From a virus (taxonomy: Duplodnaviria > Heunggongvirae > Uroviricota > Caudoviricetes), in the IMG/VR virus record IMGVR_UViG_2778261224_000004: DNA of 47,754 nt, one strand, 5' to 3'. Shown here piece after piece: positions 1 to 47,754 of this stretch. Below the pieces are notes generated by a model. The model was not told where the DNA came from. It searched no databases and saw nothing but the letters and a program-made list of their open reading frames with translations. Each line of letters opens with the position of its first letter. Position 1 is the first letter of the stretch. The position numbers and the translations under genes were made by a program.

Positions 1-77
1 GATATTGTTATAGGGCATAATGTGACCATTGGTTGTAATGCCACCATTCTTGGTGGCAAAGTGCGTATAGGAAACAA
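1..77. repeat. Terminal duplication: bases 1-77 identical to 47678-47754 (circular-closure overlap)
   Basis: Same 77-nt string at both window ends, in the same reading frame of the acetyltransferase gene. Confidence 0.9.
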
Positions 78-183
78 TGTCACAATAGGTGCTCATGCAT
101 TGGTATTGCATGATATTCCTGATGATTCAACATTCATCACTAAATTTCAGTCTGAAGTTATCTGCTCGTCCTCCCGAACATAA
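1..183 (+). CDS. Hexapeptide-repeat (left-handed beta-helix) O-acetyltransferase, C-terminal part; same gene as 47297..47754 across the circular junction
   Basis: Frame-1 translation [42 protein letters not shown]... shows hexapeptide repeats; stop TAA at 181-183. Confidence 0.7.
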
Positions 184-764
184 CCCTGATTCATCAGCTC
201 TGGCCATACGATATCCGGAGCTGTACTGGTGTCAATTCTACTCACTAATACTCTGTATTTTCTCCAGGAATCCAGTTGTGAATTTTCCTCGTTTGTTGCT
301 ATTTCAAGATTAACTGCATCCTGCAGAATTGCGATGTTATCTGTTGCTTCCTGGATCAACCTTGCCTTTTTCTCTTCCGCTTCCCGTATCCGAAACAGTT
401 TTTCTGCTTCCTCATCATTCACCCAGGATACGCCGTCCCACTTCTGATACTCCCCTGCTGGCGACAACCAGGTGACATTCTCTGGTAGCGGTCCGAGTTC
501 AGAAATAAACAATGCGTCCCCCGACGCCACGTCATAGACCGTTTTACCACGATGGTCTTCAACAATATTCCACGATTCATTTTCACTGTTAAAAACTGCC
601 ACAAAGCCAGCAGGAATTTCCGGTGGGGCGATATCTGTAGAATTAGCTGGCAGCCCTGTATGAGGTGGAATATATGCGTCACCTTCACCAATAAACTCAT
701 TAGTTCCGGCCAGCAGGTTATAAATTTTTACGGTACGTGATTGTTCACTCATTCTGAATGCCAT
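147..764 (-). CDS. Tail fibre assembly protein (Tfa-like chaperone)
   Basis: 205-aa ORF immediately downstream of the tail fibre gene; size, position and composition typical of lambda Tfa / P2 G / Mu U chaperones; 3' end overlaps the acetyltransferase 3' end convergently (147-183). Confidence 0.7.
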
Positions 765-3610
765 TATGCAAGCCTCACAATATAATTAAATGCGATGTTT
801 TTAACGGTGTTTTCCGCGTTACCAGCAGCGTTAACGGTGATGGTGTGTCCATGTGAACCAATCTTAACAGAGTGCGTATGAGCGCCAATACCAACAGTGT
901 GTGCATGTGCCCCAGCACTTGTAGCGGTACCTGATACTGAGTGGGTATGTGCGCCAGAAGAAGGCACAGTTCCATTCCCCACCACCGTGCCACTTGATGA
1001 ACCATCCAGCCAGTCGAAATTCATACCGCCACTGTTTGGTCTCCTTAATGGAACGGTATGAGTATGTGCGCCAGCACTATTTGCAGTACCAGATACATTG
1101 TGGGTATGTGCACCTGTGTTATTCGTTGATTTAGTACCGTAATCAAACGACGATGTGGTTTTCGTACCCAAATCCGTACTGGATGCGCTGGCACTGTGGG
1201 TGTGCGATTTAATGCCATCCTGTTCCTGAGACAATACGGCCCGACCACTGGCGGGTTTGCCCTTGATTGTCCAGCCGCGCATATCTGGAATAACACCAGA
1301 AGGATAGGCAATAGCCAGTTTCGGATATGCTGCCTTATCAAACGTCTGCCCCTGCATGATTGCATAACCTGCAGGTGGCGTATCTGATGGCCACGGCAGC
1401 GGAACACCTGGCGGAAACGCTTCAATATTTGCCGAGCCGTCAAATTTTACGCCGTTAATTGTCCTTGCCGTTTTCAGCTTTGTTGCTGTCGCCGCATTGC
1501 CGGACAGTTCACCAGAAAGGCCAGCACTGAATGTCTGTTTCGCGCCCCATGTCTGGGCTTCGTCAATGATTGGTACTCGTCTTGTTGTGATCGTGCGGCT
1601 CCCCGGATTTCCTGAAATGCGCACCATAAAAAAGCGGTAGTTGGCTTTACTTACAGTGCTGCGCCATACATGCATTGAGCGCCCCGTACCGGAATCATCA
1701 CTCGGACCAACTGCGATATTTATCAGGTTGCCATCAATGACGCCCCAGTCCATACCGTCGGGAATATTGGTCATATTATCCAGCCGAACGGTTATCAGAC
1801 TGCCCGGAACAAAGTCGTAGGTCTGCCAGTCCAGGCTGGTGAGCTTTGCCACAGCACCGCCGATACCCAGATTCAGGGGAAGTGAATACGAGGTGTAGAC
1901 TTCCCGCCATTCGCTCCACGAGCTACCGGTATAGGCGCGCTCAAACGTGCGACCTTTAAGGGTTGCACCTGTTCCGGCGGTTGTATAACGTTGCCATACG
2001 TTAACGCCATCAAAGCGCCTCAGCACTTCCAGAATACCGAGTACAGTCACGCCGTTTCCGTCCAGTATTGGACCATTGGTCGCTTTACCTGTAACGCTGT
2101 AAATACCTGGTGAGGTTACATCATTCAAATCACCGTCGTAATAACGGCTTTCTGACTGATGACCGACTCTTAACCACGGTTCCCACTGCGGATTTGATGC
2201 ATCCCAGCTTGCCGCAAGGCAGCGGACATACATATTTCCACGGCGAGTGGTATAACGTTGCGTTCTTCCATAATTTCCGCCTTCGAGGATCTCAAGCATC
2301 CCCTGAGCAAAGCCGCCTTCCTCTGGATAATTGCGTTCATATGAAGCTATAGCTGAGCTACTGTTACGCCATAAACCAAGATGCTCGGCGGCTCCAAGCG
2401 TATTCAGGTCTATAGTCGTACTCAAAGGGCGGGTAGCAGATTGAGTGTGACGCCATACGCCCCACGGACCATCAGTGCCATTCCACTTATTGGCGAGTTT
2501 ACGCATGTATACATTGCCGTCTCTCGTGGTAAAGCGTTGCGTACCTGCAAAATGGCCGGCAGCAAAAACCTCAAGCACACCGACAGCATTATCTTCCGGG
2601 AAATTTTTCTCCAGTGTTGCGTTGGTGGATGTTGCTTTAGACCAGATACCTGAATAAGCCTTAACAGGACCAAACGTATTCAGATCAGCATCAAGCGGCA
2701 TTTCGCCATTGTTTTTCATAAACGTCAGGCTGGTAACGCCAACATTGTCCAGAAAAGCTGATTTATCCTGGATATCTGCACCGTTCTGATTTTTCGCCAG
2801 ACGTGAATTTGCGTTGTCATTTGCTGCCTTGACCGCTTTTGGCGTTGCCGCCTGCGTTTCAGACGTACTGTTAGTGGCACTACTGAGCTGAACTATCCCT
2901 TTTTGTGCCGTGGTGGCATTCTGGGCGGTATATTTTCCGTCAGCCAGGTCATATGCAGCCTTAACAGCCTTAGGCGTCGCTGCGAGCTTTTCAGACGTGC
3001 TATTGGTGGCATTACTGAGTTGAACAATGCCTTTTGATGTTAAAGTTGCATCAGGATGATTACGTGATTGCTCATGTTTTACAATAGCTTGCTTAAGCCG
3101 CTTTGCTGAAACAGCCAGGGAATCATCTGTACCTGCATCAATTTCTTGTTCATTAGCAAATCTTGCTACTCCAACAACAGTTTCGGTTGCGGGAGGGTTA
3201 ATAAACTCAACATCACCAAATGTAATGTTTTTAGTATCAAGATTTTTAATTGCTATATCACTTGATATTAAAGCAATTGTAGAAGATGCTTTATTTATTA
3301 TTACTTGTTCTTGCGAGTATACAGCAAACAATGTTCCTTTATTTGTATACAAACCTATTGTATGGACAACATACTCATCTTTACTATCATCCTTCGCAGT
3401 TACATGAATGGTATCAGGAGAAACGACTTTGCCTCCTATTGTGGTAAGTCGCTTTATTTCATCTGTTATTTTTGTTTGTGTGGTTGATGTGGCATAATAT
3501 CTACTACCTAAACCAACAGAAACGATCTCAACTTTATTTGTTCCAGTCTTGTTGGCATTAACCAGCGCCTTACGCCCGGCGTCAGTCATCGTAAATAATA
3601 ATTTACTCAC
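764..3610 (-). CDS. Tail fibre protein with C-terminal His-x-His repeat tip domain
   Basis: 948-aa ORF; repeated collar-like motifs (KGIVQLSxATNSTSE..[10 protein letters not shown] twice), three paralogous internal modules (..[15 protein letters not shown].. / ..[16 protein letters not shown].. / ..[11 protein letters not shown]..), and C-terminal GAHTHxVSGTA..HTHSV HxH repeats as in T4 gp37-type and lambda Stf-type fibre tips. Confidence 0.85.
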
Positions 3611-19026: not shown

Positions 19027-20883
19027 CTATATGGTTACGCCTTTACTTATAACTCTACGGCGTCTTCTACGTATACCTGACGAGTTCTGCACATACACAT
19101 TACCTCGCATTTCCTGTTCGGCAAGCCAGTTAAAATTAGGGTTCAGAATTTCCATCGCGGCAGTTGCATAGTTACGGCAATCAAGAGGCTCGTTACGCTC
19201 GTAGACTTTCACCCACTTTTCTTTTGTCTGCCCATTTTTATATTCAAATATTTTTTTCTCTGATAATAATCCTTTAAAGTATTCGGTATCATATCCTCTG
19301 TCAGAATCTAATGGGAAATGCATATAACCAGGACCAGGATCATGTAGTTTAATTCTTGCCATGATGGTCCCTTTACCATCATCAACCCCCAAATTAAACA
19401 ACATAGCACCCACACGGTTATTATTACTTGGCTTTCCTATAAATGGTAAACCTACCCCACCACGCCCCCTGATAGAGTATATTCGCCTTGATTCTCTCGG
19501 CTTAGTAAAGCGATATACCTCTGTCGTAAAATGCCCACCAGAGTCAATACAAACGGAAGAAATCTGTAATTTTCGACCGTCACGGAATGACCAGCTACGG
19601 AGTAAGTATTCATCAAGTTGTTTCCAGACAACATCTTGTGCGGGATCACCTGGGAATATTTTATATTCTATCCCCCATGACTCCTTACCTTTTCCCCAAC
19701 CGACCAATTCACAAACTAAATACGTGTCCTGTACGTCAACACCAGCACTTAACAATAAAACATCATCTGGTAAAAACTCTTCAAACCTTATTCTGCGTTG
19801 CAACAAGTATTCAGGATCGATATCGTCTTTAGCATCCTCTTTCCATGGCTCACCCAGCTTAAGGTTAATAAACTCCATTAATCCATTTTTATCGCGGTTT
19901 CTGGTTGCTTCCGTAAATTCTTCAACCAGCTCTGACAATGCAACCCACGGGGAGTAAAGACTGTTAATATGAAAACCAACAATACCTTTAACTCCAGTAT
20001 GTTCAGCTATCCATACCCCCTTCGCCAACCAATCAACGTCTGGTTTACCAGATCCGCGCATAATCCCGCCGCACTCACAGCACTCATATCTGGCCGTTTC
20101 CGGTAACGCCTCACCTGAATCGCTCTTATCCCATCTGACTTGCGACCATTTCATCACCTGCATGGTGCCACAACATGGGCAAGGAACATGGTAGTAACGC
20201 TGATCGGAGAGCTTAAACCACTTGTGGATTTTGCTTGTTTCCTCCAAAACAGGAGTAGAAACAAAAACTTTCTTACGATTATGAAAGTTGGTAGTACGCT
20301 GAATACCTAGTTTTAGTGGGTCGCCCTCCTGCGTCACACCGTAACGATCAATCTCATCAGCTAACAGTATTCGAATTGGCCTGGATGCAAGACCTGCTGG
20401 GGAATTAGCACCAACAAGTGCTATATATCCACCAGCGTAATGCTTCATACGTATAGTCGTGCTGGACTTTTTGGCTGCACCGCGCCCCTCTTTCCCTTCA
20501 TGCAGCTTGTGTTTCAAACCAGGGGAATATTTGAACGTCGGATCAATACGCTCTTTTGAAAAAGCCTCAGCCGCCTCTACCGTTGGATAAATCATCAACT
20601 GAGGAGATGGCTCCTGATCTGCAAAGTAACCCATAACATTTAGCTGTAATTCGGATTTACCAATTTGCGAGCTACATTGCATCACTACTGTTTCTGTATC
20701 AGCGTCACCAATAACATCCATTGGTTCACGCAAATATGGCACTCGGCTTGTACGCCACGGCCCTGGCTCTGGAGACGTTCCCGGCGCTACATGACGATAC
20801 TTATCAGCCCATTCGGAAACAGTTAGCCGTGATTTAGGGCGAAGCGCACGGAAAAAAGCGGTGCTCCATACTGTTTCGCCCAT
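19027..20883 (-). CDS. Terminase large subunit, lambda gpA-like
   Basis: 618-aa ORF; N-terminal ..TVSEWADKY.. and ATPase region resemble the GpA terminase family. Confidence 0.85.
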   Translation of the reverse strand: MGETVWSTAFFRALRPKSRLTVSEWADKYRHVAPGTSPEPGPWRTSRVPYLREPMDVIGDADTETVVMQCSSQIGKSELQLNVMGYFADQEPSPQLMIYPTVEAAEAFSKERIDPTFKYSPGLKHKLHEGKEGRGAAKKSSTTIRMKHYAGGYIALVGANSPAGLASRPIRILLADEIDRYGVTQEGDPLKLGIQRTTNFHNRKKVFVSTPVLEETSKIHKWFKLSDQRYYHVPCPCCGTMQVMKWSQVRWDKSDSGEALPETARYECCECGGIMRGSGKPDVDWLAKGVWIAEHTGVKGIVGFHINSLYSPWVALSELVEEFTEATRNRDKNGLMEFINLKLGEPWKEDAKDDIDPEYLLQRRIRFEEFLPDDVLLLSAGVDVQDTYLVCELVGWGKGKESWGIEYKIFPGDPAQDVVWKQLDEYLLRSWSFRDGRKLQISSVCIDSGGHFTTEVYRFTKPRESRRIYSIRGRGGVGLPFIGKPSNNNRVGAMLFNLGVDDGKGTIMARIKLHDPGPGYMHFPLDSDRGYDTEYFKGLLSEKKIFEYKNGQTKEKWVKVYERNEPLDCRNYATAAMEILNPNFNWLAEQEMRGNVYVQNSSGIRRRRRRVISKGVTI

Positions 20884-21449: not shown

Positions 21450-22030
21450 CCATTAGCAAGATACTGAACAAATCCCTCATGCGTTTCATGCGCGTCGTGG
21501 TACTGACGATAAACATCCAGCAACAATGCAATTTCCATATCCGTCGCGGGAATACGTTCTTTATCAATAGCCAGGTACTTAATTTGAACAACAGGGGAAG
21601 AATTATCGTCTTCTTCCTGCGGCTGTTCATCGCTTAACATTTCGTCAAGCTCTGCATCATTAAACCCAAGCAGATCAATATCAAAATCATCATCCATTAA
21701 CTCTTTGACTTCTTCGGCCAGAAGCTGCATATCCCAGCCAGCATTTAAGGCCAGCTTGTTATCTGCAATCCTGTAAGCCTTCTTCTGTTTTTCAGAAAGG
21801 TTACTCAACCGAATCGCCGGAACTTTATCCATTTCCAGAATTTCGGCTGCTGCAAGCCGCCCATGCCCCGCAATCAGTTCATTCTTTTCATCGATCAGCA
21901 CAGGATTAGTGAAACCGAACTCACGGATACTGTTCACCAACTGTTCAACTTGCTCATCTGAATGAGTCCGTGAATTTTTGGCATATCTGAGCAACTTACC
22001 GACTGGTAAATATTCGATTTTTAGAGCCAT
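21440..22030 (-). CDS. ParB-like nuclease domain (ParB/Srx fold) protein
   Basis: 196-aa ORF; motif ..YAKNSRTHSDEQVEQLVNSIREFGFTNPVLIDE..LIAGHGRLAAA..; paralog of 24697..25320. Confidence 0.7.
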   Translation of the reverse strand: MALKIEYLPVGKLLRYAKNSRTHSDEQVEQLVNSIREFGFTNPVLIDEKNELIAGHGRLAAAEILEMDKVPAIRLSNLSEKQKKAYRIADNKLALNAGWDMQLLAEEVKELMDDDFDIDLLGFNDAELDEMLSDEQPQEEDDNSSPVVQIKYLAIDKERIPATDMEIALLLDVYRQYHDAHETHEGFVQYLANGCK

Positions 22031-22587
22031 TTTTTAACCGCCATAACACAACAGGTTAAAGAAAACTGTTTAACTTATTGATACTAAAAGAGAAAAATGA
22101 CGATCTTTTTACTCATAAAAAATCACACAAACCAGCATAATTATCTGATTTTATTAAGTTTTTATAAGTAAAAAGGATCTTGCGATGGTGTTTTGGTTAA
22201 AAGATTGGATGTATTTGCATGATTTATAACGATTTTTATCAGAACAACATTACATTGGTTAAAGATCTGCGCGTATCTTGATGATCTAAAAGAAAATTTT
22301 CTACTTTCTTTTTACCAGCACAAATACAGCAAAAAATCACGTTTTCCCGATATTTTTCAATGAGATGAGTAAATTTCTTTTACCGCAACTTTTAACCTAA
22401 CTTTTTTCACGTTTAGCTAGCCGAACATCGGGGTTCGAATGACCCGCATCCAACGCTTTTGGCCAGAAGGACCCAATTCTGCCGGACGATGAAACGATGC
22501 TCGTGCTCCCCCACAGACAGCCAGCGAGCGACGCTACAGAACACAGTGAATACACTCTGCATAACAACACCATCAACCACACGATGA
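22031..22587. other. 557-bp AT-rich non-coding gap inside the late gene block (candidate cos/packaging or regulatory region)
   Basis: No convincing ORF; AT-rich with several GATC sites. Confidence 0.3.
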
Positions 22588-24703: not shown

Positions 24704-25320
24704 ACCTCCCCAGCCAGCAATGCGGATACAAATCCGATATAGCTGCCATTATCATCAACATAACGAGACACCGCGCAGTCAAAACGATCCGCTTCCTCAT
24801 CCGTTGCCGGGATTTTATGACCTCCAAATGACAGGTACTGAACTTTTACGCCTGATTTGGCCTCATCCTTCTCAAATGGGATATCCATACCCTCTGTGTC
24901 ATCGTAGACCGCCGCACTCAATAAGTTATCCAGTTCGCGCTGAGTAAAACCAATTGAGTCCAGAGAAAAATCATCGGCCGCAAGATCTGCAAGCTCCGCG
25001 CTTAACAACTCTTCATCCCAACCAGCATTCAGCGGAATACGGTTGTCGGCCAGACGATATGCCTTCTTCTGATTCTCCGTTAGCCCAGCCAGAACAATGC
25101 AGGGAACATCATCCATCCCCAACTGAGTGGCCGCAGCAATTCGACCATGACCAGCAATTACAACGTTGTTCTCGTCTATCAGGATCGGATTAGTCCATCC
25201 GTACTCCTGTATGCTGGCAACAATCTGATCTACCTGCTCCACGGAGTGTGTGCGAGCGTTCTTTTCATAACCAATCAACACAGAAAGTGGTAAAGAAACC
25301 ACATTAAGTTGTTTTGTCAT
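24697..25320 (-). CDS. ParB-like nuclease domain (ParB/Srx fold) protein
   Basis: 207-aa ORF; ..YEKNARTHSVEQVDQIVASIQEYGWTNPILIDE..VIAGHGRIAAA.. Confidence 0.7.
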   Translation of the reverse strand: MTKQLNVVSLPLSVLIGYEKNARTHSVEQVDQIVASIQEYGWTNPILIDENNVVIAGHGRIAAATQLGMDDVPCIVLAGLTENQKKAYRLADNRIPLNAGWDEELLSAELADLAADDFSLDSIGFTQRELDNLLSAAVYDDTEGMDIPFEKDEAKSGVKVQYLSFGGHKIPATDEEADRFDCAVSRYVDDNGSYIGFVSALLAGEVC

Positions 25321-26167: not shown

Positions 26168-26421
26168 GAAACTATCCATTCTTCAATGAATATCTCCAGT
26201 AATATCAAGAGATACGCCGTTCCCAGCGCGGTTCCTACCGATATAGCTAAGACAAACCTCAAAGATAACGAGGTGTCCTTCGCTTTTCTCCAGACGTAAG
26301 CGCCAGCCAGAAATACCAACAAATCTCTTATTGGAAGCGGAAACCAGAACAAATCACTCGGCAAGTCCACGGTTATATCCTTCCATTCATTTTTATCGGG
26401 TGACCAGATAGCCTTAGGCAA
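26164..26421 (-). CDS. Hypothetical membrane protein
   Basis: 85-aa ORF with hydrophobic C-terminal half; start uncertain (overlaps previous ORF by 49 nt). Confidence 0.4.
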   Translation of the reverse strand: MPKAIWSPDKNEWKDITVDLPSDLFWFPLPIRDLLVFLAGAYVWRKAKDTSLSLRFVLAISVGTALGTAYLLILLEIFIEEWIVS

Positions 26422-26828
26422 TTGAGCTGTAAAGCTCCTGTATCAACTAAATGATCAACTAACATGATTAGAGATTCATATTCAGCCAGATAGCTAACCT
26501 GACGCATTCGACCGCCGTTGTTCTCCAGAATGTCAGCCACCTTTGCAGCCAACTCGCTTAGACAGAAGAACTTATTCCCATATATCGTTTTATACTCGCG
26601 CTTCTGGCATTCTTCGGCTTGCGGCTGGTTATCGAGAGCTATCAGCGACCGATGGCTATCAATGAAGTCCACAATCTCATTCAGGCATTCTTTAGCTGCC
26701 TCATCGTGACTTTTTCCGTATGCTTCACGGAGGACTTTCATCCTCATCATTGCTCCGTCACATATAGTCGAAAGCGCGTAAAGCACATCACTAACCGCCA
26801 TTTCTTTTTTGGTGCTTGTCGAAGGCAT
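26373..26828 (-). CDS. Hypothetical protein
   Basis: 151-aa ORF in accessory block. Confidence 0.45.
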   Translation of the reverse strand: MPSTSTKKEMAVSDVLYALSTICDGAMMRMKVLREAYGKSHDEAAKECLNEIVDFIDSHRSLIALDNQPQAEECQKREYKTIYGNKFFCLSELAAKVADILENNGGRMRQVSYLAEYESLIMLVDHLVDTGALQLNCLRLSGHPIKMNGRI

Positions 26829-26902: not shown

Positions 26903-27103
26903 TTAATGCTCGCGTCGTCCGGCGACAACTTCGGATTTGTATTTCAGGTCGCCCAGCAAGAATTGCAGTTTAAGCATCTTTGCCGCCGTGTAGTTCCCTG
27001 ATTCCACAACCTCTTTCATGAGGTCATAAACGGCCGCTACATCATCAGCCAGGAACTCTTTGCGTTGCTGCTCAGTCGCACGTTTGAAGGAAATACGCAT
27101 CAC
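26903..27103 (-). CDS. Hypothetical protein
   Basis: 66-aa ORF, ATGA overlap with upstream gene. Confidence 0.4.
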   Translation of the reverse strand: MMRISFKRATEQQRKEFLADDVAAVYDLMKEVVESGNYTAAKMLKLQFLLGDLKYKSEVVAGRREH

Positions 27104-27369
27104 TCATCATCTCCTGCCGCACATACAACCTCACAAAAAAAATCAGCAGAATGTTTCTCCTTGAACGAATGACGCTCAAAACCGCACTCAATATCAGGCG
27201 CAAAAACATCCACCACATACGGTCTTTCAGAATGTTTGTTTTCCCAACGATAAACCGTAGTGACGTTGAAATGTTTTAACGCTTCACGGAACTCAACGCT
27301 GCCCGTCAGGTTTTTTGAGGTCAGGTATTGCAGGAGGTTTTTTACTACTTCACGGTCTTGTACTTTCAT
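27100..27369 (-). CDS. Hypothetical protein, first gene after repeat copy A
   Basis: 89-aa ORF; GGAG RBS 8 nt upstream of ATG inside the conserved 112-bp cassette. Confidence 0.45.
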   Translation of the reverse strand: MKVQDREVVKNLLQYLTSKNLTGSVEFREALKHFNVTTVYRWENKHSERPYVVDVFAPDIECGFERHSFKEKHSADFFCEVVCAAGDDE

Positions 27370-27478
27370 CGGGTTATCTCCGGTTTAACCAGGGCGGGTA
27401 TCGCTCGGTTTCGGGTATAACCATAGGAAATTTTTTCCCATCTGTAAAGCACTTTTTATATAAATCTATAATTATATA
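27367..27478 (-). promoter_or_regulatory. Conserved ~112-bp promoter/leader cassette, copy A
   Basis: More than 95 percent identical to 34245..34355 and 43156..43267; contains AT-rich motif, TTTACA-N17-TATGGT promoter-like hexamers, leader and RBS. Confidence 0.55.
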
Positions 27479-27481
27479 ATT

Positions 27482-28376: not shown

Positions 28377-28452
28377 TGGTGGCCCCTACCGGATTTGAAC
28401 CGATGACCGTGCGATTATGAGTCGCCTGCTCTAACCACTGAGCTAAGGGGCC
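28377..28452 (-). tRNA. tRNA with CAT anticodon (Met or lysidine-type Ile2), encoded CCA end
   Basis: Hand-folded cloverleaf GGCCCCTTAGCTCAGTGGTTAGAGCAGGCGACTCATAATCGCACGGTCATCGGTTCAAATCCGGTAGGGGCCACCA: 7-bp acceptor stem, D arm, anticodon loop CTCATAA, T loop TTCAAAT. Confidence 0.85.
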
Positions 28453-28545: not shown

Positions 28546-28621
28546 TGGTTGATGCGTGCGCCCATGAGAAAAGCGCATAGAATGTTGTAACTATATATTT
28601 ATATAATTATAGAAATATATA

Positions 28622-33179: not shown

Positions 33180-34247
33180 TCAGGCTTTCAATAGCGATTC
33201 TTTTAGATATCGGGCATCAGCCAGGGCGTTTGGAGTAATCTTGCGAACCCATGCATTACGGGTTGGACTCCACTTAAAGGCGCGTGATTTAAGCAGCGAA
33301 CGAATGTTTGCCTCTGGTTTGCCAGGGAAATAAAACAGGATGCGGTTATCCTCTGGATCTATCTCCATAGAAAAGCCGTCGTATTCTTCGCGCTGTGCTC
33401 CTGTTACAGACTTGACCGATTCAAGCTCCTTAATACGGCTCTGTAGTCGTTTGATTTCGGCGTTATTGTTGCTCAGTGCGTATGAAGGGAATCCGATGCG
33501 CCCACAGAAATCTCCGGCCAGTAACTCTTTGGCTTCGCTTTCTGTAAACCTGAGATCGATTAATGCAGAAAGCTGCTGTATTTGGTCTTTTTTGTATTTG
33601 CGAATGGCCTTATTTGCGGCCTTCATTTTGACGTGTGACTTCATGCAGCCTTGCAGCTTACGAAGCAACTTAAATAGCGCATCAGGATCATCAGACGAAA
33701 TTCCATTACGACCAACACCTGCGGCTTTGCTCTCGTAGTGTGATGCTTTACTTTCGCATTCAACAAACGCTTTTCTGAATAACGCATCAGCTTTAGACAA
33801 ACGGCGGCGATGGCCTTTCGCGCTATAATGGTCAACTAAAATCGGCTGGCCTAACGGGATCACATCCAACAGGTCATGCGCTCGCTTATGCGCTACCGCA
33901 CCTTCTTTTCTGGCTTTTTCTGCACGAGCAATATATCGGGCAAGACGCGCGTTCTGGCGTTCCTGATAGGTGTTTACGTAATCATCTCCGCGCTGCTGCT
34001 GTTCAAGCCATGCTTTGCGCAGATCTTCTGTTACGTCCACCAGCTCCGCAGGGATACAACCAGTTTGGGCTTCATAAGAGTAACCATCCTCATAGATACG
34101 CCCATCGTCTTCAACAAAGAAAAAGGTTTCGTGCTCATCGCTTTTGACCATACGACCATTAACATGGCGTAATAGGTAGCCAGTATCAGTGCTTAACAGG
34201 CTGTTAGGGTTGTTGATCCAGTCAGAAATAATTACTTGTTTATTCAT
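33180..34247 (-). CDS. Hypothetical protein (DUF3560-like by recollection), first gene after repeat copy B
   Basis: ORF track gives 33180..34301; start moved to Met 34247, which aligns with the start codons of the other two cassette copies and has a GGAG RBS. Confidence 0.45.
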   Translation of the reverse strand: MNKQVIISDWINNPNSLLSTDTGYLLRHVNGRMVKSDEHETFFFVEDDGRIYEDGYSYEAQTGCIPAELVDVTEDLRKAWLEQQQRGDDYVNTYQERQNARLARYIARAEKARKEGAVAHKRAHDLLDVIPLGQPILVDHYSAKGHRRRLSKADALFRKAFVECESKASHYESKAAGVGRNGISSDDPDALFKLLRKLQGCMKSHVKMKAANKAIRKYKKDQIQQLSALIDLRFTESEAKELLAGDFCGRIGFPSYALSNNNAEIKRLQSRIKELESVKSVTGAQREEYDGFSMEIDPEDNRILFYFPGKPEANIRSLLKSRAFKWSPTRNAWVRKITPNALADARYLKESLLKA

Positions 34248-34355
34248 CAGATTTCTCCGGTTTAACCAGGGCGGGTATCGCTCGGTTTCGGGCATAACCA
34301 TAGGAAATTTTTTCCCACCTGTAAAGCACTTTTTATATAAATCTATAATTATATA
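34245..34355 (-). promoter_or_regulatory. Conserved ~112-bp promoter/leader cassette, copy B (immediately downstream of Q-like gene)
   Basis: Near-identical to copies A and C. Confidence 0.55.
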
Positions 34356-34416
34356 TTTATAGATTTTCGATGTTCCCGATGTCTACACACCATCAAAACA
34401 GCTCAAAATGACACTT

Positions 34417-34797: not shown

Positions 34798-35130
34798 TCA
34801 GATCTCCCGTATCGTGACGGGATAAAGCGCCTCTACCTGCTTTTTCTTCATGATGTAGACGTCTGTTCGCACACCTTTAGTGTCGACACAATCAATCGTC
34901 CCATCGTCATAAAACACCATGAAATCAAGTTTATAAACGACACCACCTGGCAGATGAAAAGGCACCTGCATAAGAAACGTCACAACGCGGCCAGCTTTTC
35001 TCAGTAGCTTCAGTTCGCAGTAGTAATCAGCCTCTTTTTTGCTATCAAAAGCGATATCATCGACAACCGTTTTTTTATTGCCGTATTTGCTTTTCCTTGT
35101 CGCTGGTTTGCGAAAGCCGGTATATCTCAT
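34798..35130 (-). CDS. DUF1064-like lambdoid nin-region protein
   Basis: 110-aa ORF, MRYTGFRK..KYGNKKT..DSKKEADYY pattern. Confidence 0.5.
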   Translation of the reverse strand: MRYTGFRKPATRKSKYGNKKTVVDDIAFDSKKEADYYCELKLLRKAGRVVTFLMQVPFHLPGGVVYKLDFMVFYDDGTIDCVDTKGVRTDVYIMKKKQVEALYPVTIREI

Positions 35131-35531
35131 TTGGTATCCCCTGGTACTTCACCAAGACTAAGATCAAACCCAATTTCGTCTTTAACTGACTGCGGCAACA
35201 GCTCCCACGTCTGCGCACACAAAAATTCATCTGTGCCATAACGCTCAACAAAGCGAGCACAATTACTCAGGGGAGGGTGACGAACGGCAATATGCGGAGG
35301 CACACGCCCACCACCAGGCACAACACCGCGATGATGTGGTGCGCACAACCCAAAGCTATGGAAGTGGCAATTCTCATCAACGCTGCCGTAATCAGGATCG
35401 TGATGTAGCTCCGTCCACAGCTCTGGATTCTCAATTTCACGGCCATCAATAATGCAAGCTATGCAACCCACGTGAGTGAGCACCGCTTGTATATAAAGTT
35501 TCTCTTTCTTCGTTGGTGTACGTCCGTTCAT
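35127..35531 (-). CDS. Hypothetical Cys/His-rich protein (possible metal-binding nuclease-like)
   Basis: 134-aa ORF with CxxC and HH clusters. Confidence 0.4.
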   Translation of the reverse strand: MNGRTPTKKEKLYIQAVLTHVGCIACIIDGREIENPELWTELHHDPDYGSVDENCHFHSFGLCAPHHRGVVPGGGRVPPHIAVRHPPLSNCARFVERYGTDEFLCAQTWELLPQSVKDEIGFDLSLGEVPGDTK

Positions 35532-35764
35532 CAGCGCCCCTTACCATTGATAAAGAGGTTGAACTCGTTGATTAACTGGACATACATGCTTCTGGCCGCG
35601 TAGTTCTTTGCCAGCTCTTTACGGGATGAGATCCCGCAAAACTCACGCAGAATCACAGAGGCCTCAGAACTGTTTGAAACGTTCTTCCCTGTTTTACTGG
35701 TCAGAAAGCGCCAGAATTGGGGATTCTGGCAATGCATCGCAGCACCGCGAACATAACTACTCAT
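35531..35764 (-). CDS. Hypothetical protein
   Basis: 77-aa ORF. Confidence 0.35.
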   Translation of the reverse strand: MSSYVRGAAMHCQNPQFWRFLTSKTGKNVSNSSEASVILREFCGISSRKELAKNYAARSMYVQLINEFNLFINGKGR

Positions 35765-36276
35765 TGATGGCCCCCGTCATTTCTGGTGCTTTTCACCGTG
35801 CGGCTTCTTAAAAACCTGCCATCACGAACAACAGACACTTCTCGTTTACCCAACCTCATTTCACGGCGGTAACATTCAGAAAATGCCTCGTCCGGCATCA
35901 TATAAATGCGACGCTTCGCCTCCGTATCCAGAAGGGAACGGCTTGGGGTTACATATAAGAACGACTCATCAATAGGGACAAAACCACGAGCAAGAATTGC
36001 TGGCAGAATACCAGGAAGAACGCAGAAAACAGCTCCACGATGCAGCAACATCTGGTACTCCATGACCTCCGTAATCCCCGTAACGACTGTTACGGTGTCA
36101 CGTCTGTTACGGCTGGCAACCAGTCGCTGCACACCTCCAATTTTCTGCTCTACAGATAGACGTTTGCTATCGTTATCAATATGATCGATAACAAATCCTT
36201 TAATCGTTTGATCAAGGTAGTGCACCACCTGCGATTGAATCTGGTGATTATCACCAAAGAAGGCCAGAATCATCAT
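35761..36276 (-). CDS. Hypothetical protein
   Basis: 171-aa ORF in early operon. Confidence 0.4.
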   Translation of the reverse strand: MMILAFFGDNHQIQSQVVHYLDQTIKGFVIDHIDNDSKRLSVEQKIGGVQRLVASRNRRDTVTVVTGITEVMEYQMLLHRGAVFCVLPGILPAILARGFVPIDESFLYVTPSRSLLDTEAKRRIYMMPDEAFSECYRREMRLGKREVSVVRDGRFLRSRTVKSTRNDGGHQ

Positions 36277-36767
36277 TCCTCAAGCCTCCCAAGTGCTGAA
36301 CGCCGGGCGTTGCTAATCTCCTTATGAATCAGCTCGATATCGCTGGAATCTTTATTCTTAAGCTCCAGCACGGTAATCGCATCACGAACCTCTGAAACGG
36401 TTACGTGTGAGTGTTTCCAGCGAGCAATGAATCGCGGACCGCGTAGATTGCAACGCTCCGCAGGCATCCCCAGCTCAGAGAAAACCGCTTTCAGCCTTGA
36501 TAAGCAGTTAACAGGGAGATTCCCTTTGATCTTGTTCTGCCGAACCGATGTGCCATCGCTACGCTGGCGCTGACGTTCGGCAAAATCTGCCGCCCATTGC
36601 TGGACGTTAATCCGGCCTTCCGAATACGCCACCAGCAGCGTCAGGTTATCCGCACGAGGGAATCTCTCGAAGCGATACCAGGCACCAATCAGTGATGACG
36701 TAAAGCCAAACTTTCTGGCAACACCAATTTGGCCTCCATTTTCGTCAACCCACTCCTGAAAGGTCAT
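36273..36767 (-). CDS. Cro/CII-like early regulator (N-terminal HTH), divergent from repressor gene
   Basis: 164-aa ORF transcribed away from the CI-like gene; N-terminal ..GGQIGVARKFGFTSSLIGAWY.. HTH-like. Confidence 0.45.
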   Translation of the reverse strand: MTFQEWVDENGGQIGVARKFGFTSSLIGAWYRFERFPRADNLTLLVAYSEGRINVQQWAADFAERQRQRSDGTSVRQNKIKGNLPVNCLSRLKAVFSELGMPAERCNLRGPRFIARWKHSHVTVSEVRDAITVLELKNKDSSDIELIHKEISNARRSALGRLEE

Positions 36768-36786
36768 TTAACGAACTCCAGTTAAA

Positions 36787-36904
36787 ACCACGATACGTGG
36801 TATTAAAACCACATATCGTGAGTTTTTCAATGGGCGAAACAAAAAATAACCTTCTATTTGTGGTCCACCTCTCGTCTTACCATGTGAAAACCACTAAATG
36901 TGGT
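36787..36904. promoter_or_regulatory. Immunity-region operators: palindromes ACCAC-N5-GTGGT between divergent repressor and Cro-like genes
   Basis: Sites at 36787-36801 (ACCACGATACGTGGT), 36808-36822 (imperfect) and 36890-36904 (ACCACTAAATGTGGT). Confidence 0.6.
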
Positions 36905-36941
36905 AATGTATAAATAACCCACCATTCACGATTGATGAGAC

Positions 36942-37598
36942 ATGAAAAGCAACGACGAGAACATCAAGAAAGAAATAGGTCTGCGCATTCAGACTCTACG
37001 GAAACAATCCGGCATGACTGCCGGAGATCTCCAGCAAGTCACTGGAATAGGCTTAAGCACCTTGCAGAACTATGAGGCCGGATTAAGACAACCATCTATA
37101 CCTGCCATCAAGAAAATCGCGCACGCCCTGAAAGCATCAGCGCCTTATATCGCGTGCTTAACAGATAACCCGTTCCCACCCCAGAATACTAACGCTCCTG
37201 TTATTCCTGGGCTTGTAGCTATAAAAAATGACATAGCATCGCACGCCGGAGAAAAGCCAGTGCTGGCGATAGAACAGGAGATTCTACGAAGCAAGAACAT
37301 CAACCCATCGTCTCTGTCAGTTCTCCAGAGCAACGATGAGTTAATGTCACCAACAATATCCCCAGGCTCCCAAGTCCTGATTAATACAGACGATACAGAG
37401 ATTCATGAGGGGATCTATGCCCTTGAAGACAGAAATGGCCTGGTTGTTTTGAGGCACTGTAGAGTCATACCGGGTGACAATGCTGTTATGCTGTCAACCG
37501 AAAGGGATGCTGAAATGAACACTAAGCATCTGAATAACGAGGAATTTAAGCGTTATAAAGTTCTTGGCCGCGTAGTTAGTGTTGTCAACTGGTTATGA
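36942..37598 (+). CDS. CI-like repressor (HTH_XRE N-terminus, LexA/S24-like C-terminal domain)
   Basis: 218-aa ORF; ..QTLRKQSGMTAGDLQQVTGIGLSTLQNYEAG.. HTH and S24-like C-terminal domain. Confidence 0.8.
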   Translation: MKSNDENIKKEIGLRIQTLRKQSGMTAGDLQQVTGIGLSTLQNYEAGLRQPSIPAIKKIAHALKASAPYIACLTDNPFPPQNTNAPVIPGLVAIKNDIASHAGEKPVLAIEQEILRSKNINPSSLSVLQSNDELMSPTISPGSQVLINTDDTEIHEGIYALEDRNGLVVLRHCRVIPGDNAVMLSTERDAEMNTKHLNNEEFKRYKVLGRVVSVVNWL

Positions 37599-37640
37599 TA
37601 CACAGCACGGCGAAAGCCGTGCATTTCTACGCTCAAAAAA

Positions 37641-37655
37641 ACCACATTTTGTGGT
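37641..37655. promoter_or_regulatory. Operator-like palindrome ACCACATTTTGTGGT between repressor gene and downstream ORF
   Basis: Perfect outer half-sites; adjacent TTGACA at 37657-37662. Confidence 0.45.
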
Positions 37656-37690
37656 TTTGACAACATGTAAAAGTATAAAAGAGGCTACGC

Positions 37691-38065
37691 ATGGAATTAC
37701 ATACAGCCAATAAAAACGAAACTCTGATCACTGCTGGAATCGAAATCCAAGCGTTGAACATAGCGATTGAGTGTATGTTATGCCAAATCATTGATAATGA
37801 GAAAGATATCGACTGGATAGAATCTATCCTTCATCTGGCATCAGAACAAAAAGTCTGCCTCAAAACGGCCTTACAATACGATGTGCCAGCGGTATCGAAG
37901 CTGTGCCAGCCATTGATGGCATATAACAGGGCTATTATTTCTGTATGCCTCATGATTCTTGATGAAACCCCCCCTCTTAGCGACCGCTCAGAAGCTGCTC
38001 TAACCCTCTCACGTAAACAGCGACAGCTAGCAAATCAACTGATATCAACGATAGCTGACCTCTGA
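37691..38065 (+). CDS. Hypothetical protein encoded directly downstream of the repressor
   Basis: 124-aa ORF followed by a hairpin terminator. Confidence 0.45.
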   Translation: MELHTANKNETLITAGIEIQALNIAIECMLCQIIDNEKDIDWIESILHLASEQKVCLKTALQYDVPAVSKLCQPLMAYNRAIISVCLMILDETPPLSDRSEAALTLSRKQRQLANQLISTIADL

Positions 38066-38069
38066 CTGC

Positions 38070-38089
38070 AAGCGGGCTAACGCCCGCTT
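38070..38089 (+). terminator. Hairpin (candidate terminator) after the 124-aa ORF
   Basis: AAGCGGGC-TAAC-GCCCGCTT perfect 8-bp stem; downstream tract AT-rich rather than a clean T run. Confidence 0.45.
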
Positions 38090-38200
38090 ATATGATTATA
38101 GATTTATATAATTATATAAAACGCTTTTCATCAGCCAAAAAGTTGGTTATGCTTACCTCGTTCTATAAATATAGATTTATAGAATTATATAACCAAACAC
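38085..38200 (+). promoter_or_regulatory. Two copies of the AT-rich ATTATAGATTTATAtAA motif upstream of parA (promoter/centromere candidate)
   Basis: Motif at about 38090-38115 and 38165-38190; a third copy lies upstream of parG at 38861-38900. Confidence 0.45.
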
Positions 38201-45852: not shown

Positions 45853-46830
45853 TTAATGTTGGAGTGATTTCCAGGTCTTTCTTAACCTGTTATAACGCTG
45901 CTCAACGAGGGATCGTAAATATGCAAGGTCAGCTCCAGGATACATGCCATCAGCAAATTCCTGGCTAACCTCTCTAGTGATTTGATGACGAAGTTCGGCC
46001 TCTCCCTTTTCCCGAACAAGACGCGCAGCTCTCTCCGCTGCTTTCTGTTTTGCCTTTATCTCTCTGGCCGTCTTCCTCTGATGCCATACATTCTCCATCT
46101 GCTCCTGAATAACAATACGCTTATAATCAGCCTCCGTTATCGCTTTTTTAAGCCGTTCGCTATTCTTCGCATTGAAGTAATTAAGTTTCTGGCTAACCGC
46201 ACGTCTCCATGCTTGTTCAGTAATACCAACGGTTTCCAGCAGTTGATCACGAATCTCTATTTTCGCTGGCCAATACTGTTTATTCACCCGATCCCAGCGA
46301 CGTTCATAATCAATAAAACCTAACGCTTTCAGTTGCGACAATGCCCTTGTACAGCGCGTTATAGACTTGTTCCCAGCTTCGGATACGGTAGACAGGCCGC
46401 AAAAATCAGCCAACGCCTCAGCACTGGCCAGAACCCGCTTAGAAATGATGTTTACATGGTGCAAAATCGCAGCGATCACAGCATTAATCGCCCGACGACG
46501 ATGCTCGTTTATCCGGCGCTTCCGCTCTGACGGTTGATTAACGTAGAACGCAACCTCACACGTAAGATCACGCCCATTAATGCGCTGTAAAGCATCAGAT
46601 AACACCAGCGGCAGCTTGTGCGTATGGTGCTTTGGAGGCTGGAACTCCGGCGACAAATTACAAACGTAAGCTGAACGTAGAGACGGCATTGGTCTATCCA
46701 TATGTTCGCTCTTGCGTCCACGGAAAACCAACGTATAATGGGAGTTGTCGAGGCGCCCATGGTTAGTTGTTGGTTTTCCGTGGATGTCGCAAGAAGCCCG
46801 CAGATTTATCTGCGGGCTTTTTGTTTCCAT
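45853..46830 (-). CDS. repA: Plasmid replication initiator RepA, IncFII (RepFIIA)-like; true start probably internal (Met 46701 or 46692)
   Basis: 325-aa ORF; ..FCGLSTVSEAGNKSITRCTRALSQLKALGFIDYERRWD.. resembles the RepA1 core as recalled; the N-terminal 43 codons overlap the antisense-RNA/leader structures. Confidence 0.6.
   Translation of the reverse strand: METKSPQINLRASCDIHGKPTTNHGRLDNSHYTLVFRGRKSEHMDRPMPSLRSAYVCNLSPEFQPPKHHTHKLPLVLSDALQRINGRDLTCEVAFYVNQPSERKRRINEHRRRAINAVIAAILHHVNIISKRVLASAEALADFCGLSTVSEAGNKSITRCTRALSQLKALGFIDYERRWDRVNKQYWPAKIEIRDQLLETVGITEQAWRRAVSQKLNYFNAKNSERLKKAITEADYKRIVIQEQMENVWHQRKTAREIKAKQKAAERAARLVREKGEAELRHQITREVSQEFADGMYPGADLAYLRSLVEQRYNRLRKTWKSLQH
46746..46826 (+). 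ncRNA. Candidate CopA-like antisense RNA opposite the repA leader
   Basis: Plus-strand TTGCGT-N16-TATAAT (46712-46739) and, about 80 nt downstream, terminator GCCCGCAGA-TTTA-TCTGCGGGC plus TTTTGTTT (46796-46826); perfect 15-bp inverted repeat 46718-46732 / 46768-46782 in the leader. Confidence 0.5.
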
Positions 46831-46866
46831 ATCTGGTCACTTTCCAACCAGACACCCACAATCATA

Positions 46867-46881
46867 ACCACGTTACGTGGT
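46867..46881. promoter_or_regulatory. Operator-like palindrome ACCACGTTACGTGGT in the repA promoter region
   Basis: Same ACCAC-N5-GTGGT architecture as the immunity-region operators. Confidence 0.45.
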
Positions 46882-47296
46882 TTTAAGAGAACTCTACCAC
46901 AACACTTTCGGTCATGCACGAAGTCTCTCACTGATCGAACGATAATCCACCAGTAAAAGGATCTAAATTGGATCTCGTTTTGCGAGCATCATACTACTGG
47001 CCTAACTCCAGTCAATGATTCCCAGCCAGAAACCTGCGGTAAACTCATCGTTCAGCAATATGCTGTCCGGCTTCAAAGATAAGGTGACATCATCCCTTAA
47101 CAGCGCGGCCAGTTCAGTTAAAGGGCTGTTCTGATTTAATGCTGGCCACTCATACCTGGTAATAAGTGGTCAGTCTTAACACTCACCATTTGATTGCACC
47201 CGTGTTGACGATTTGTTACTGGATATCAGACACGCTGGATAGCCAGTAGAAACATACCATTAAAATTATTACAATAATTGGTCACATGATTATCTT

Positions 47297-47754
47297 ATGC
47301 TGAATAATAAAGATATGAATATTAATGAACTTAAAGACTGTATTCACTATGAAGTAATCGGTAGCGAGCGTCCTTTCTCCTGGCGAAAGGCAATTGTTCG
47401 CGCAATAAAACATAGAAGGGTTCGTTATTTATTTTGGTGGCGCATAGCCAAATACCTTTTTGATAAAGGCGGATACTGTCGGAAGATTGCGGGAAAAATA
47501 GAACGTTTCATTCTTGATAAATATAATGTAACAGTCCCTTTAACTGTAAATATAGGGAAAGGCTTTGATATTTCTTATCTCAACAGTGTTGTTATCGGTC
47601 ACAAAGTAACAATCGGTGAAAATTGTTCAATTAAGCCCGGAGTAACTATTGGACTTCGCGGGGAATTTAATGATATGGATATTGTTATAGGGCATAATGT
47701 GACCATTGGTTGTAATGCCACCATTCTTGGTGGCAAAGTGCGTATAGGAAACAA
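47297..47754 (+). CDS. Hexapeptide-repeat O-acetyltransferase, N-terminal part (continues at 78..183 across the circular junction; about 187 aa in total)
   Basis: ATG at 47297; translation MLNNKDMNINELKDC...GKGFDISYLNSVVIGHKVTIGENCSIKPGVTIGL... with hexapeptide repeats; reads in frame into the terminal duplication. Confidence 0.75.
   Translation, partial: MLNNKDMNINELKDCIHYEVIGSERPFSWRKAIVRAIKHRRVRYLFWWRIAKYLFDKGGYCRKIAGKIERFILDKYNVTVPLTVNIGKGFDISYLNSVVIGHKVTIGENCSIKPGVTIGLRGEFNDMDIVIGHNVTIGCNATILGGKVRIGN

What the first reader, a model, noticed from the sequence alone, without database searches (positions are those of the whole stretch)
47678..47754. 77-bp end-to-end identity shows the window is a closed circular replicon
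Bases 47678-47754 are identical to bases 1-77, and the acetyltransferase ORF starting at 47297 reads in frame through the window end and continues at base 78 to a stop at 181-183. This is how a circular contig written with a small overlap looks, so the unique genome is about 47,677 bp and gene order wraps: tail fibre/Tfa sit next to the acetyltransferase and the repA region.
Basis: seen in the sequence. Interest (0 to 1): 0.45.

Follow-up and report, generated by a model that had tools for sequence, protein, structure and literature searches.

The report
Assembly overlap of a circular phage-plasmid
The identical 77 bases at both ends are the usual leftover of an assembler writing out a circle, and the circle is a common, already sequenced 47.7-kb E. 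coli phage-plasmid, so the finding is correct but ordinary.

Summary
Bases 1-77 and 47678-47754 are identical, 77 is the longest terminal overlap, and the 77-mer occurs nowhere else. Dropping one copy restores a 187-codon left-handed-beta-helix (hexapeptide-repeat) acetyltransferase ORF.

The one-copy junction aligns without gaps to independently closed circular E. coli plasmids, and the whole 47,677-bp circle is collinear with p806883-9-2019b (47,500 bp, 99.6-99.9% identity). In two closed plasmids the window's first and last 77 bases map onto the same 77 bases. About 40 PLSDB plasmids share the backbone.

A length of 77 equals a common de Bruijn k value, so the repeat is an assembly artefact, not biology.

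The replicon is a phage-plasmid. It has an IncFII-type RepA, ParA, a HigB/RelE-type toxin-antitoxin pair and a P1-like C4 RNA/antirepressor immunity region. It also has a full myovirus module with a lambda-gpA-type terminase. Plaque-forming relatives exist (Yersinia phages vB_YpM_39/41/44).

One nuance: the virion form should be linear, with cohesive ends near window 22433-22444, far from the window ends.

Nothing here is new; interest is low.

The parts
1..77 (.). First copy of the 77-bp terminal overlap. It lies inside the acetyltransferase gene.
   Evidence: identical to 47678-47754. It is single copy in closed plasmids.
47678..47754 (.). Second, redundant copy of the overlap. It should be trimmed to give the 47,677-bp circle.
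47297..47754 (+). 5' part of the LbetaH (hexapeptide-repeat) acetyltransferase gene. It runs off the window end. The PGAP start is 47315.
   Evidence: in-frame join. (Pfam Hexapep, 47.7 bits against a cut-off of 27). (best NCBIfam matches EpsC/CysE/WcaB, all below their cut-offs). (annotated as transferase / LbetaH domain protein).
1..183 (+). 3' part of the same acetyltransferase gene. The stop is at 181-183. It overlaps the 3' end of tfa, which converges on it, by 37 bp.
147..764 (-). Tail fibre assembly protein (Tfa).
   Evidence: Pfam Caudo_TAP, E = 1e-39..
764..3610 (-). Tail fibre, with a P2-like C-terminal part.
   Evidence: Phage_fiber_2 and Collar; window 1455-2891 is 93-94% identical to P2-type tail fibre genes.
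45853..46830 (-). repA, the IncFII-family plasmid replication initiator.
   Evidence: PF02387, 150 bits (cut-off 22.9). NF040977 RepA_IncFII_LM, 231 bits (cut-off 70).
46716..46826 (+). Strongly structured element at the 5' end of the annotated repA: a long hairpin followed by a terminator-like hairpin with a T-run. It is a candidate antisense copy-control RNA or its target (inferred).
   Evidence: inverted repeats I3 and I5. (MFE -69.5 kcal/mol, z = -8.7). (no known Rfam family reaches its threshold). (promoter-like site on the minus strand at 47015-46988).
38201..38869 (+). ParA-type partition ATPase.
   Evidence: CbiA/ParA/MipZ. (ParA family protein in the near-identical plasmid).
43744..44396 (-). 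HigB/RelE-type toxin (44043-44396) and HTH antitoxin (43744-44043).
   Evidence: PGAP: RelE/ParE family toxin plus HTH protein. (Gp49 plus HTH_37). (annotated higB2 in the Yersinia phage).
40227..41835 (+). P1 immI-like immunity region: isrK-like RNA (40227-40299), C4 antisense RNA (40324-40412) and an ORF6N/Rha antirepressor-like gene (40654-41835).
   Evidence: C4 77.8 bits against 45; isrK 65.8 against 50. (ORF6N plus Phage_pRha). (the C4 loop is complementary to 40264 and 40462).
19027..20883 (-). Large terminase, lambda gpA type.
   Evidence: GpA_ATPase (255 bits) and GpA_nuclease (285 bits).
22433..22444 (-). Candidate 12-nt cohesive end (GGTCATTCGAAC on the minus strand). This is the predicted end of the linear virion DNA (inferred).
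   Evidence: the records of phages vB_YpM_39 and vB_YpM_44 are opened exactly 12 nt apart here, upstream of the terminase genes. The junction is contiguous in the window.

Best explanation
The window is a complete circular contig that the assembler wrote out with its last k-mer repeated (k = 77). The real molecule has one copy of the 77 bases and is a 47,677-bp circle.

The circle is a phage-plasmid of Escherichia. In the lysogen it is kept as a closed circular plasmid by an IncFII-family RepA, a ParA partition ATPase and a HigB/RelE-type toxin-antitoxin pair. Lysogeny is held by an HTH repressor and a P1-like C4 RNA/antirepressor module.

On induction a myovirus virion is built. A lambda-gpA-type terminase is predicted to cut concatemers at a cos site near 22433-22444, which would give a linear molecule with cohesive ends.

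The window's break point, inside an acetyltransferase gene, is arbitrary.

Shown here: the overlap, its single-copy state in closed relatives, whole-length collinearity, and the family assignments of the genes. Inferred: which assembler and k value were used, the cos position and its 12-nt overhang, and the roles of the repressor, the antisense RNAs and the acetyltransferase.
For: Overlap and junction:
- Exact 77-bp terminal identity, unique in the window.
- The reading frame is restored across the join.
- The one-copy junction is gapless against two closed circular plasmids; the two-copy version is not.
- The full circle is collinear with NZ_CP099756.1, 47,500 bp, circular.
- Both end copies map to the same 77 bases in NZ_CP116126.1 and NZ_CP064105.1.
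- 40-43 PLSDB plasmids of 46-50 kb share at least 80% of each tested part.
- A 1-kb junction-spanning query is contiguous in 176 complete E. coli records.

How common the element is:
- The exact RepA protein occurs in 1,710 blocks of public assemblies. In 767 of them the longest contig carrying it is 20-50 kb.

Gene families:
- RepA is above both curated cut-offs.
- ParA, a gpA-type TerL and an ORF6N/Rha protein are present.
- C4 and isrK RNAs are above their Rfam gathering scores.
- No integrase or protelomerase is annotated in the 99.9% identical plasmid.

Phage side and assembler habit:
- Isolated phages vB_YpM_39/41/44 carry the same repA and virion genes at about 98% identity.
- Published assemblies report the same 77-bp identical ends on circular contigs (PMC5671560, PMC8767329, PMC11177050).
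Against: No reads or assembly graph are available, so the assembler, its k value and the coverage across the junction are not shown directly. The source sample is unknown: it could be a bacterial isolate (plasmid form) or a phage lysate. The window's variable segment was not found in IMG/VR. The cos site rests only on where two database records were opened. Two very large records (CP050217.1, CP050218.1) carry a repA-acetyltransferase fragment next to integrase fragments, so pieces of the element can sit in other contexts.
Confidence: 0.95

Rival explanations
1. The circular map is right, but the DNA sequenced was virion DNA. That DNA would be linear with cohesive ends, or replicative concatemers. 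The assembler closed it because cos-joined or concatemeric reads bridge the ends, so the contig alone does not show a closed circular plasmid in that sample.
For: Close relatives were isolated and sequenced as phages, and their records are also labelled circular. The terminase is of the lambda gpA (cos) type. The source of the window is unknown.
Against: The same element is deposited as a circular plasmid in dozens of complete bacterial genomes. It carries a full plasmid maintenance set. The genome map and unique length would be the same either way.
Confidence: 0.1
2. The 77 bp is a true direct repeat. It would be either an attL/attR duplication flanking an integrated element or a direct terminal repeat of the virion DNA.
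For: Only the bare fact of identical ends.
Against: The repeat sits inside a coding sequence and is single copy in every closed relative examined. The two-copy model breaks the alignment. No integrase is annotated. The terminase type predicts cos ends elsewhere, and the phage records open at 22444, not here. The length equals a standard assembler k value.
Confidence: 0.01
3. False circularisation: the contig is part of a larger replicon in which a 77-mer occurs twice, and the assembler closed the loop wrongly.
For: Short-read graphs can form spurious cycles at repeats. Some relatives are larger, for example 57,491 bp, and some contigs are 55-115 kb.
Against: The full circle is collinear, with nothing missing, with independently closed plasmids of 47.3-47.6 kb. 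The 77-mer is unique within them at the join. The circle holds a complete phage and plasmid gene set.
Confidence: 0.02
4. The prophage is an N15-like linear plasmid with hairpin telomeres. The circular assembly would come from mixing the plasmid and virion permutations.
For: The size (about 47 kb) and the phage-plasmid lifestyle resemble N15 and PY54. This is a resemblance recalled from general knowledge only.
Against: No protelomerase is annotated. Every ORF longer than 400 aa is assigned to a tail, head, terminase or ParB-domain function. All closed relatives are recorded as circular. The replication initiator is IncFII-type, not the N15 RepA type.
Confidence: 0.01

Closest known systems
k-mer overlap at the ends of circular contigs from de Bruijn graph assemblers (for example SPAdes with a largest k of 77)
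   Same: The first and last 77 bases are exactly identical, the break point is arbitrary and falls inside a gene, and the sequence is single copy in closed references. The same 77-bp ends are reported for circular plasmid, phage and mitochondrial contigs (PMC5671560, PMC11177050, PMC8767329).
   Different: The assembler and k value used for this window are not known. The match is in the value 77 only.
E. coli plasmids p806883-9-2019b (NZ_CP099756.1), pSCU-204-5 (NZ_CP053252.2) and about 40 similar 46-50 kb PLSDB plasmids
   Same: 99.4-99.9% identity, the same gene order around the whole circle, and the same repA / acetyltransferase / tfa / tail fibre junction.
   Different: Window 26364-26646 is replaced by a shorter segment in NZ_CP099756.1. 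There are small indels elsewhere, and some relatives carry IS21 or other insertions.
Yersinia phages vB_YpM_39, vB_YpM_41 and vB_YpM_44 (OR545053-55), isolated on Y. pestis EV76
   Same: About 98% identity over most of the genome, including repA, parA, the toxin-antitoxin pair, tRNA-Met and all virion genes. TerL is 100% identical.
   Different: Between the tail fibre and repA they carry an invertible segment with alternative fibre and tfa genes and a Hin-type invertase. The window has the acetyltransferase there. Several early-region segments also differ.
Phage P1, the classical circular phage-plasmid
   Same: It works alike: circular plasmid prophage, partition system, addiction module and a C4 antisense RNA upstream of an antirepressor. 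There is also a Ref-family nuclease.
   Different: It is not a P1 relative. It is half the size, its RepA is IncFII-type rather than P1 RepA, and its terminase is the lambda-gpA (cos) type rather than P1 pac headful packaging. There is no DNA similarity to P1 in the phage search.
Vibrio phages X29, phi 2, Rostov 7 and vB_VpaM_XM1 (proposed family 'Weiviridae', PMC11432961)
   Same: These are the nearest distinct phages by large terminase (63-66% amino-acid identity over the full length), with similar genome size and myovirus morphology.
   Different: They have a different host genus. Their paper mentions no plasmid functions. Only the terminase was compared here.

Membership tests
Assembler k-mer overlap of a circular contig | First and last k bases exactly identical, with no longer or imperfect extension | tested here: met
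   the longest terminal overlap is exactly 77, and the flanking bases differ.
Assembler k-mer overlap of a circular contig | Overlap length equals the assembler's k | tested here: inconclusive
   77 is a standard k value, and the same length is reported for other circular contigs. The assembler used for this window is unknown.
Assembler k-mer overlap of a circular contig | The overlapped sequence is single copy in independently closed genomes, and both flanks are contiguous there | tested here: met
   and the coordinates.
Assembler k-mer overlap of a circular contig | Reads span the join with even coverage | not testable with these tools
   No reads are available.
Phage-plasmid (temperate phage kept as a plasmid) | Plasmid replication initiator | tested here: met
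   NF040977, 231 bits against a cut-off of 70. PF02387.
Phage-plasmid (temperate phage kept as a plasmid) | Partition or stability functions | tested here: met
   ParA passes at the Pfam level; the NCBIfam ParA_partition match is below its cut-off. A RelE/HigB-type toxin-antitoxin pair is present.
Phage-plasmid (temperate phage kept as a plasmid) | Complete virion, packaging and lysis gene set | tested here: met
   annotation of the 99.9% identical plasmid lists terminase, portal, protease, capsid, tail tube, a tail protein in the sheath position (named sheath in ON470591.1), tape measure, baseplate, fibre, holins and endolysin. TerL and the fibre proteins were confirmed.
Phage-plasmid (temperate phage kept as a plasmid) | No integration module; found as a separate replicon | tested here: met
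   No integrase is annotated. The element is deposited as a circular plasmid in complete genomes.
Phage-plasmid (temperate phage kept as a plasmid) | Shown to form infectious particles | not testable with these tools
   This is known only for relatives: vB_YpM_39/41/44 are deposited as phages with host Y. pestis EV76. This particular element was not tested.
True terminal direct repeat or att duplication | Two copies present on the native molecule | tested here: not met
   There is a single copy in the closed relatives, and the two-copy model splits the alignment.
N15-like linear plasmid prophage | Protelomerase gene and telomere palindrome | tested here: not met
   No such annotation exists, and no unassigned ORF is longer than 400 aa. 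The only long inverted repeats are AT-rich operator-like sites.
IncFII-family replicon | RepA of the IncFII family | tested here: met
IncFII-family replicon | Antisense RNA control of repA | tested here: inconclusive
   There is a strong hairpin plus terminator antisense to the repA 5' end, but no Rfam family matches.
Lambda-like cos packaging | gpA-type large terminase | tested here: met
   both the GpA ATPase and nuclease domains match.
Lambda-like cos packaging | Defined cohesive ends | tested here: inconclusive
   Two phage records open 12 nt apart at window 22433-22444. There are no end-sequencing data.
P1 immI-type immunity | C4 antisense RNA upstream of an antirepressor, with complementary target sites on the same transcript | tested here: met
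   (C4 above its gathering score). (ORF6N/Rha). (9-10-nt complements of the C4 loop at 40264 and 40462).

The most novel reading that the evidence does not exclude
The end overlap itself holds nothing new. The most novel reading left open concerns the element. This very common E. coli/Yersinia 47-49 kb element may be a phage-plasmid type that has not been formally described. It is not among the ten curated types listed in the typing paper I read. It combines an IncFII(L/M-like) RepA, a P1-like C4/antirepressor immunity region, a lambda-type cos terminase with a predicted 12-nt overhang, and a virion module whose nearest distinct relatives are the Vibrio X29-group phages. It also has a swappable cassette between the tail fibre and repA, holding either an acetyltransferase or a Hin-invertible fibre segment.
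Probability: 0.3. Interest if true: 0.3.

Novelty: already known. Interest (0 to 1): 0.08.

Why it matters
The practical value is housekeeping. One 77-bp copy should be trimmed, the genome length is 47,677 bp, and the acetyltransferase gene should be annotated as one intact gene across the join. It also sets the right frame for any other finding in this window: the sequence is a complete phage-plasmid, not an integrated prophage or a fragment. Its biological ends, if any, are at the predicted cos site near 22.4 kb, not at the window ends. No open question is advanced.

Tried and rejected
- Source contig: I looked for it in IMG/VR with an exact 76-mer from the variable segment 26364-26646 and found no match. 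The junction 117-mer found only three partial viral contigs, which I did not use further.
- Published name for the family: the pSLy3 lead was wrong, because pSLy3 is a 114-kb SSU5-like plasmid. The paper that deposited vB_EcoM-613R2 and vB_EcoM-473R2 mentions them only as ParB-carrying prophages. Searches by accession number and by Yersinia phage name found nothing relevant. The supplement of the phage-plasmid census is not held. One preprint could not be opened.
- vB_YpM_HQ103 is a different, 32-kb P2-like phage. It is useful only as a published example of a 77-bp assembly repeat.
- An Rfam search of the repA region for a CopA-like RNA gave only sub-threshold chance matches.
- Tandem-repeat and repeat scans around repA found no iteron array.
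- The composition profile shows no skew switch that would help locate an origin.

Full report
**Observation.** The first 77 and last 77 bases of the window are identical.
- 77 is the longest exact terminal overlap.
- The bases just inside each copy differ.
- The 77-mer occurs nowhere else on either strand.
- For one fixed pair of ends this cannot be chance (about 4^-77).
- NCBI's PGAP pipeline annotates the same gene from an ATG 18 nt further in (window 47315, 181 aa). Other gene callers use the 187-aa form.

**Is the repeat real DNA or an artefact?** I built two junction models and aligned both to independently closed plasmids.
- With one copy of the 77-mer, the junction aligns as one gapless block of 8,077 bp to pSCU-204-5 (NZ_CP053252.2) and of 5,468 bp to p806883-9-2019b (NZ_CP099756.1).
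- With both copies kept, the alignment splits in two at the repeat.
- The coordinates show the same thing. In NZ_CP116126.1, window base 1 maps to 12839 and base 47754 to 12915. In NZ_CP064105.1 they map to 33685 and 33609. In both cases the two end copies fall on the same 77 bases.
- A 1-kb query spanning the join is contiguous in 176 complete E. coli records, on plasmids and in chromosomal prophages.

So the native sequence has one copy. A length of 77 is a standard largest k for short-read de Bruijn assembly (my own knowledge). Identical 77-bp ends on circular contigs are reported in the literature for plasmids (PMC5671560), a mitochondrial genome (PMC8767329) and a phage kept as a plasmid, where the authors also put it down to assembly (PMC11177050).

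**Is the circle complete?**
- The 47,677-bp unique sequence is collinear around its whole length with the 47,500-bp circular plasmid NZ_CP099756.1, at 99.6-99.9% identity. The only break is window 26364-26646, which is replaced by a shorter segment.
- Forty PLSDB plasmids hold at least 80% of window 1-25000, and 43 hold at least 80% of 35000-47754. Those listed are 46-50 kb, non-mobilizable and from Escherichia.
- The exact RepA protein is on record in 1,710 blocks of public assemblies. In 767 of them the longest contig carrying it is 20-50 kb. That is what a self-contained 47-kb replicon gives in short-read assemblies.
- This excludes a false loop inside a larger replicon.

**What the replicon is: plasmid side.**
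- RepA (45853-46830, minus strand) passes both curated thresholds for the IncFII family.
- There is a ParA ATPase at 38201-38869.
- There is a HigB/RelE-type toxin with an HTH antitoxin at 43744-44396.

**What the replicon is: phage side.** The PGAP annotation of the 99.9% identical plasmid lists a full set: terminase, portal, ClpP-like protease, major capsid, tail tube, tape measure, baseplate, tail fibre, Tfa, two holins and an endolysin. The 487-aa gene beside the tube, which this record calls only 'phage tail protein', is named tail sheath in vB_EcoM-613R2. I confirmed the large terminase as lambda gpA type, and confirmed the fibre and Tfa families.

**Immunity.** This region looks like P1 immI. 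A C4 antisense RNA and an isrK-like RNA, both above their Rfam gathering scores, lie just upstream of an ORF6N/Rha antirepressor-like gene. The C4 loop has 9-10-nt complements both upstream and downstream on the same strand.

**Integration and telomeres.** No integrase or telomere resolvase is annotated. Every ORF above 400 aa has another assignment.

**Evidence that it is a working phage.** Three phages isolated on Y. pestis EV76 (vB_YpM_39/41/44) are about 98% identical over most of the window. They carry the same repA, parA and toxin-antitoxin genes. The DNA that replicates as a plasmid is therefore also packaged.

**Physical forms.** The virion form should be linear.
- The terminase type predicts cohesive ends.
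- The records of vB_YpM_39 and vB_YpM_44 are opened exactly 12 nt apart. One starts GGTCATTCGAAC|CCCGATG and the other starts at CCCGATG. This lies in the gap upstream of the ParB_N-domain gene (21440-22030), the 186-aa gene and the large terminase gene.
- A 12-nt offset is what the two nicks of a lambda-like cos site would give.
- This places the likely virion ends at window 22433-22444, where the window is contiguous.
- This is an inference from where records were opened, not from end sequencing.
- Either way, the window's own ends have no biological meaning.

**Neighbourhood of the join.** The order tail fibre (764-3610) - Tfa (147-764) - acetyltransferase (47297 to 183, converging on tfa with a 37-bp overlap) - repA is the same in the closed plasmids and in all ten contigs read; two of them (L009, L014) hold only a truncated tfa and no fibre gene.
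- The acetyltransferase is a hexapeptide-repeat (LbetaH) enzyme.
- Its best matches are exopolysaccharide and serine O-acetyltransferases (EpsC, CysE, WcaB), all below their family cut-offs.
- A role in modifying a surface polysaccharide of the lysogen is a reasonable guess, but it was not tested.
- The acetyltransferase-tfa cassette is also common in chromosomal prophages: 183 of the 243 places found are on chromosomes.
- In the Yersinia phages the same position holds an invertible segment, with alternative fibre and tfa genes and a Hin-type invertase. The segment lies in opposite orientation in phages 39 and 44.

**Comparison with what is known.** The overlap is a textbook assembly signature. 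The element is already present many times in RefSeq, PLSDB and GenBank.
- I did not find a paper that names this phage-plasmid type. It is not among the ten curated types listed in the typing paper.
- The pSLy3 lead was wrong.
- By large terminase, the nearest distinct phages are the Vibrio X29 / phi 2 / Rostov 7 / XM1 group at 63-66% amino-acid identity. That group has been proposed as a new family, with no mention of plasmid functions.

**Verdict.** The thing observed is an artefact of how a circle was written out. Novelty: already known. Interest: low.

Noticed in passing
window 27366-27479, 34243-34356, 43155-43268: Three copies of a 114-bp unit, 90-97% identical. Read on the minus strand, each holds an AT-rich operator-like stretch (TATAATTATAGATTTATATAA), a conserved leader of about 70 nt, a GGAGA ribosome-binding site and the ATG of a minus-strand gene. 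The three genes are the 89-aa ORF 27100-27369, the DUF3560 gene ending at 33180, and the 126-aa ORF 42778-43158. Related AT-rich motifs recur at 9381, 28597 and 38871, and as 8-mer arrays at 28588-28621 and 38088-38119. They look like dispersed, co-regulated promoter/leader cassettes.
   Followed up: partly
window 22433-22444 (minus strand GGTCATTCGAAC); L004 and L018 record ends: Two deposited phage genomes of this family are opened exactly 12 nt apart here. That suggests a 12-nt cohesive end like lambda's, consistent with the gpA-type terminase.
   Followed up: partly
window 46716-46826: A very stable hairpin followed by a terminator-like hairpin (MFE -69.5 kcal/mol, z = -8.7). It overlaps the first 40 or so codons of the annotated repA. 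The RepA family model aligns only from residue 57, so the true start may be further in and this may be the leader or antisense-RNA control region. It matches no Rfam family.
   Followed up: partly
window 39559-39855 (minus strand): A full-length match to the ryfA RNA family (142 bits against a gathering score of 80), in the 1.5-kb stretch free of long ORFs between parA and the C4 region. Its role on a phage-plasmid was not examined.
   Followed up: no
window 40227-41835: A P1 immI-like module: isrK-like RNA, C4 antisense RNA and an ORF6N/Rha antirepressor-like gene. The C4 loop sequence CATTGTGTCC is complementary to sites at 40264 and 40462 on the same strand.
   Followed up: partly
L004 21193-23874 and L018 20970-23828, compared with window 47044 to 2822 across the join: The slot between the tail fibre and repA is a swappable cassette. 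The Yersinia phages carry alternative fibre and tfa genes plus a Hin invertase, with the segment inverted between phages 39 and 44. The window and the E. coli plasmids carry the LbetaH acetyltransferase instead.
   Followed up: partly
window 26364-26646: A 283-bp segment that differs from the otherwise 99.9% identical plasmid NZ_CP099756.1, which has about 108 bp there. An exact 76-mer from it is absent from IMG/VR.
   Followed up: partly
window 21440-22030, 23324-24703, 24697-25320: Three separate ParB N-terminal-domain proteins flank the predicted cos region and terminase genes. They are distinct from the ParA gene at 38201.
   Followed up: no
window 28377-28452 (minus strand): A tRNA-Met (CAT) gene between the lysis genes and the MT-A70 methyltransferase gene. 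It is conserved in the Yersinia phages.
   Followed up: no
L009 (CP050217.1) and L014 (CP050218.1): In two records of 6.6 and 7.0 Mb, the repA / acetyltransferase / truncated-tfa block sits next to Phage_integrase fragments and, in one, a Rep3 gene. The block is therefore outside the usual 47-kb plasmid context.
   Followed up: no
window 19027-20883: By large terminase, the nearest distinct phages are Vibrio phages X29, phi 2, Rostov 7 and vB_VpaM_XM1, at 63-66% amino-acid identity. They have been proposed as a new family and are not described as plasmid-borne.
   Followed up: partly
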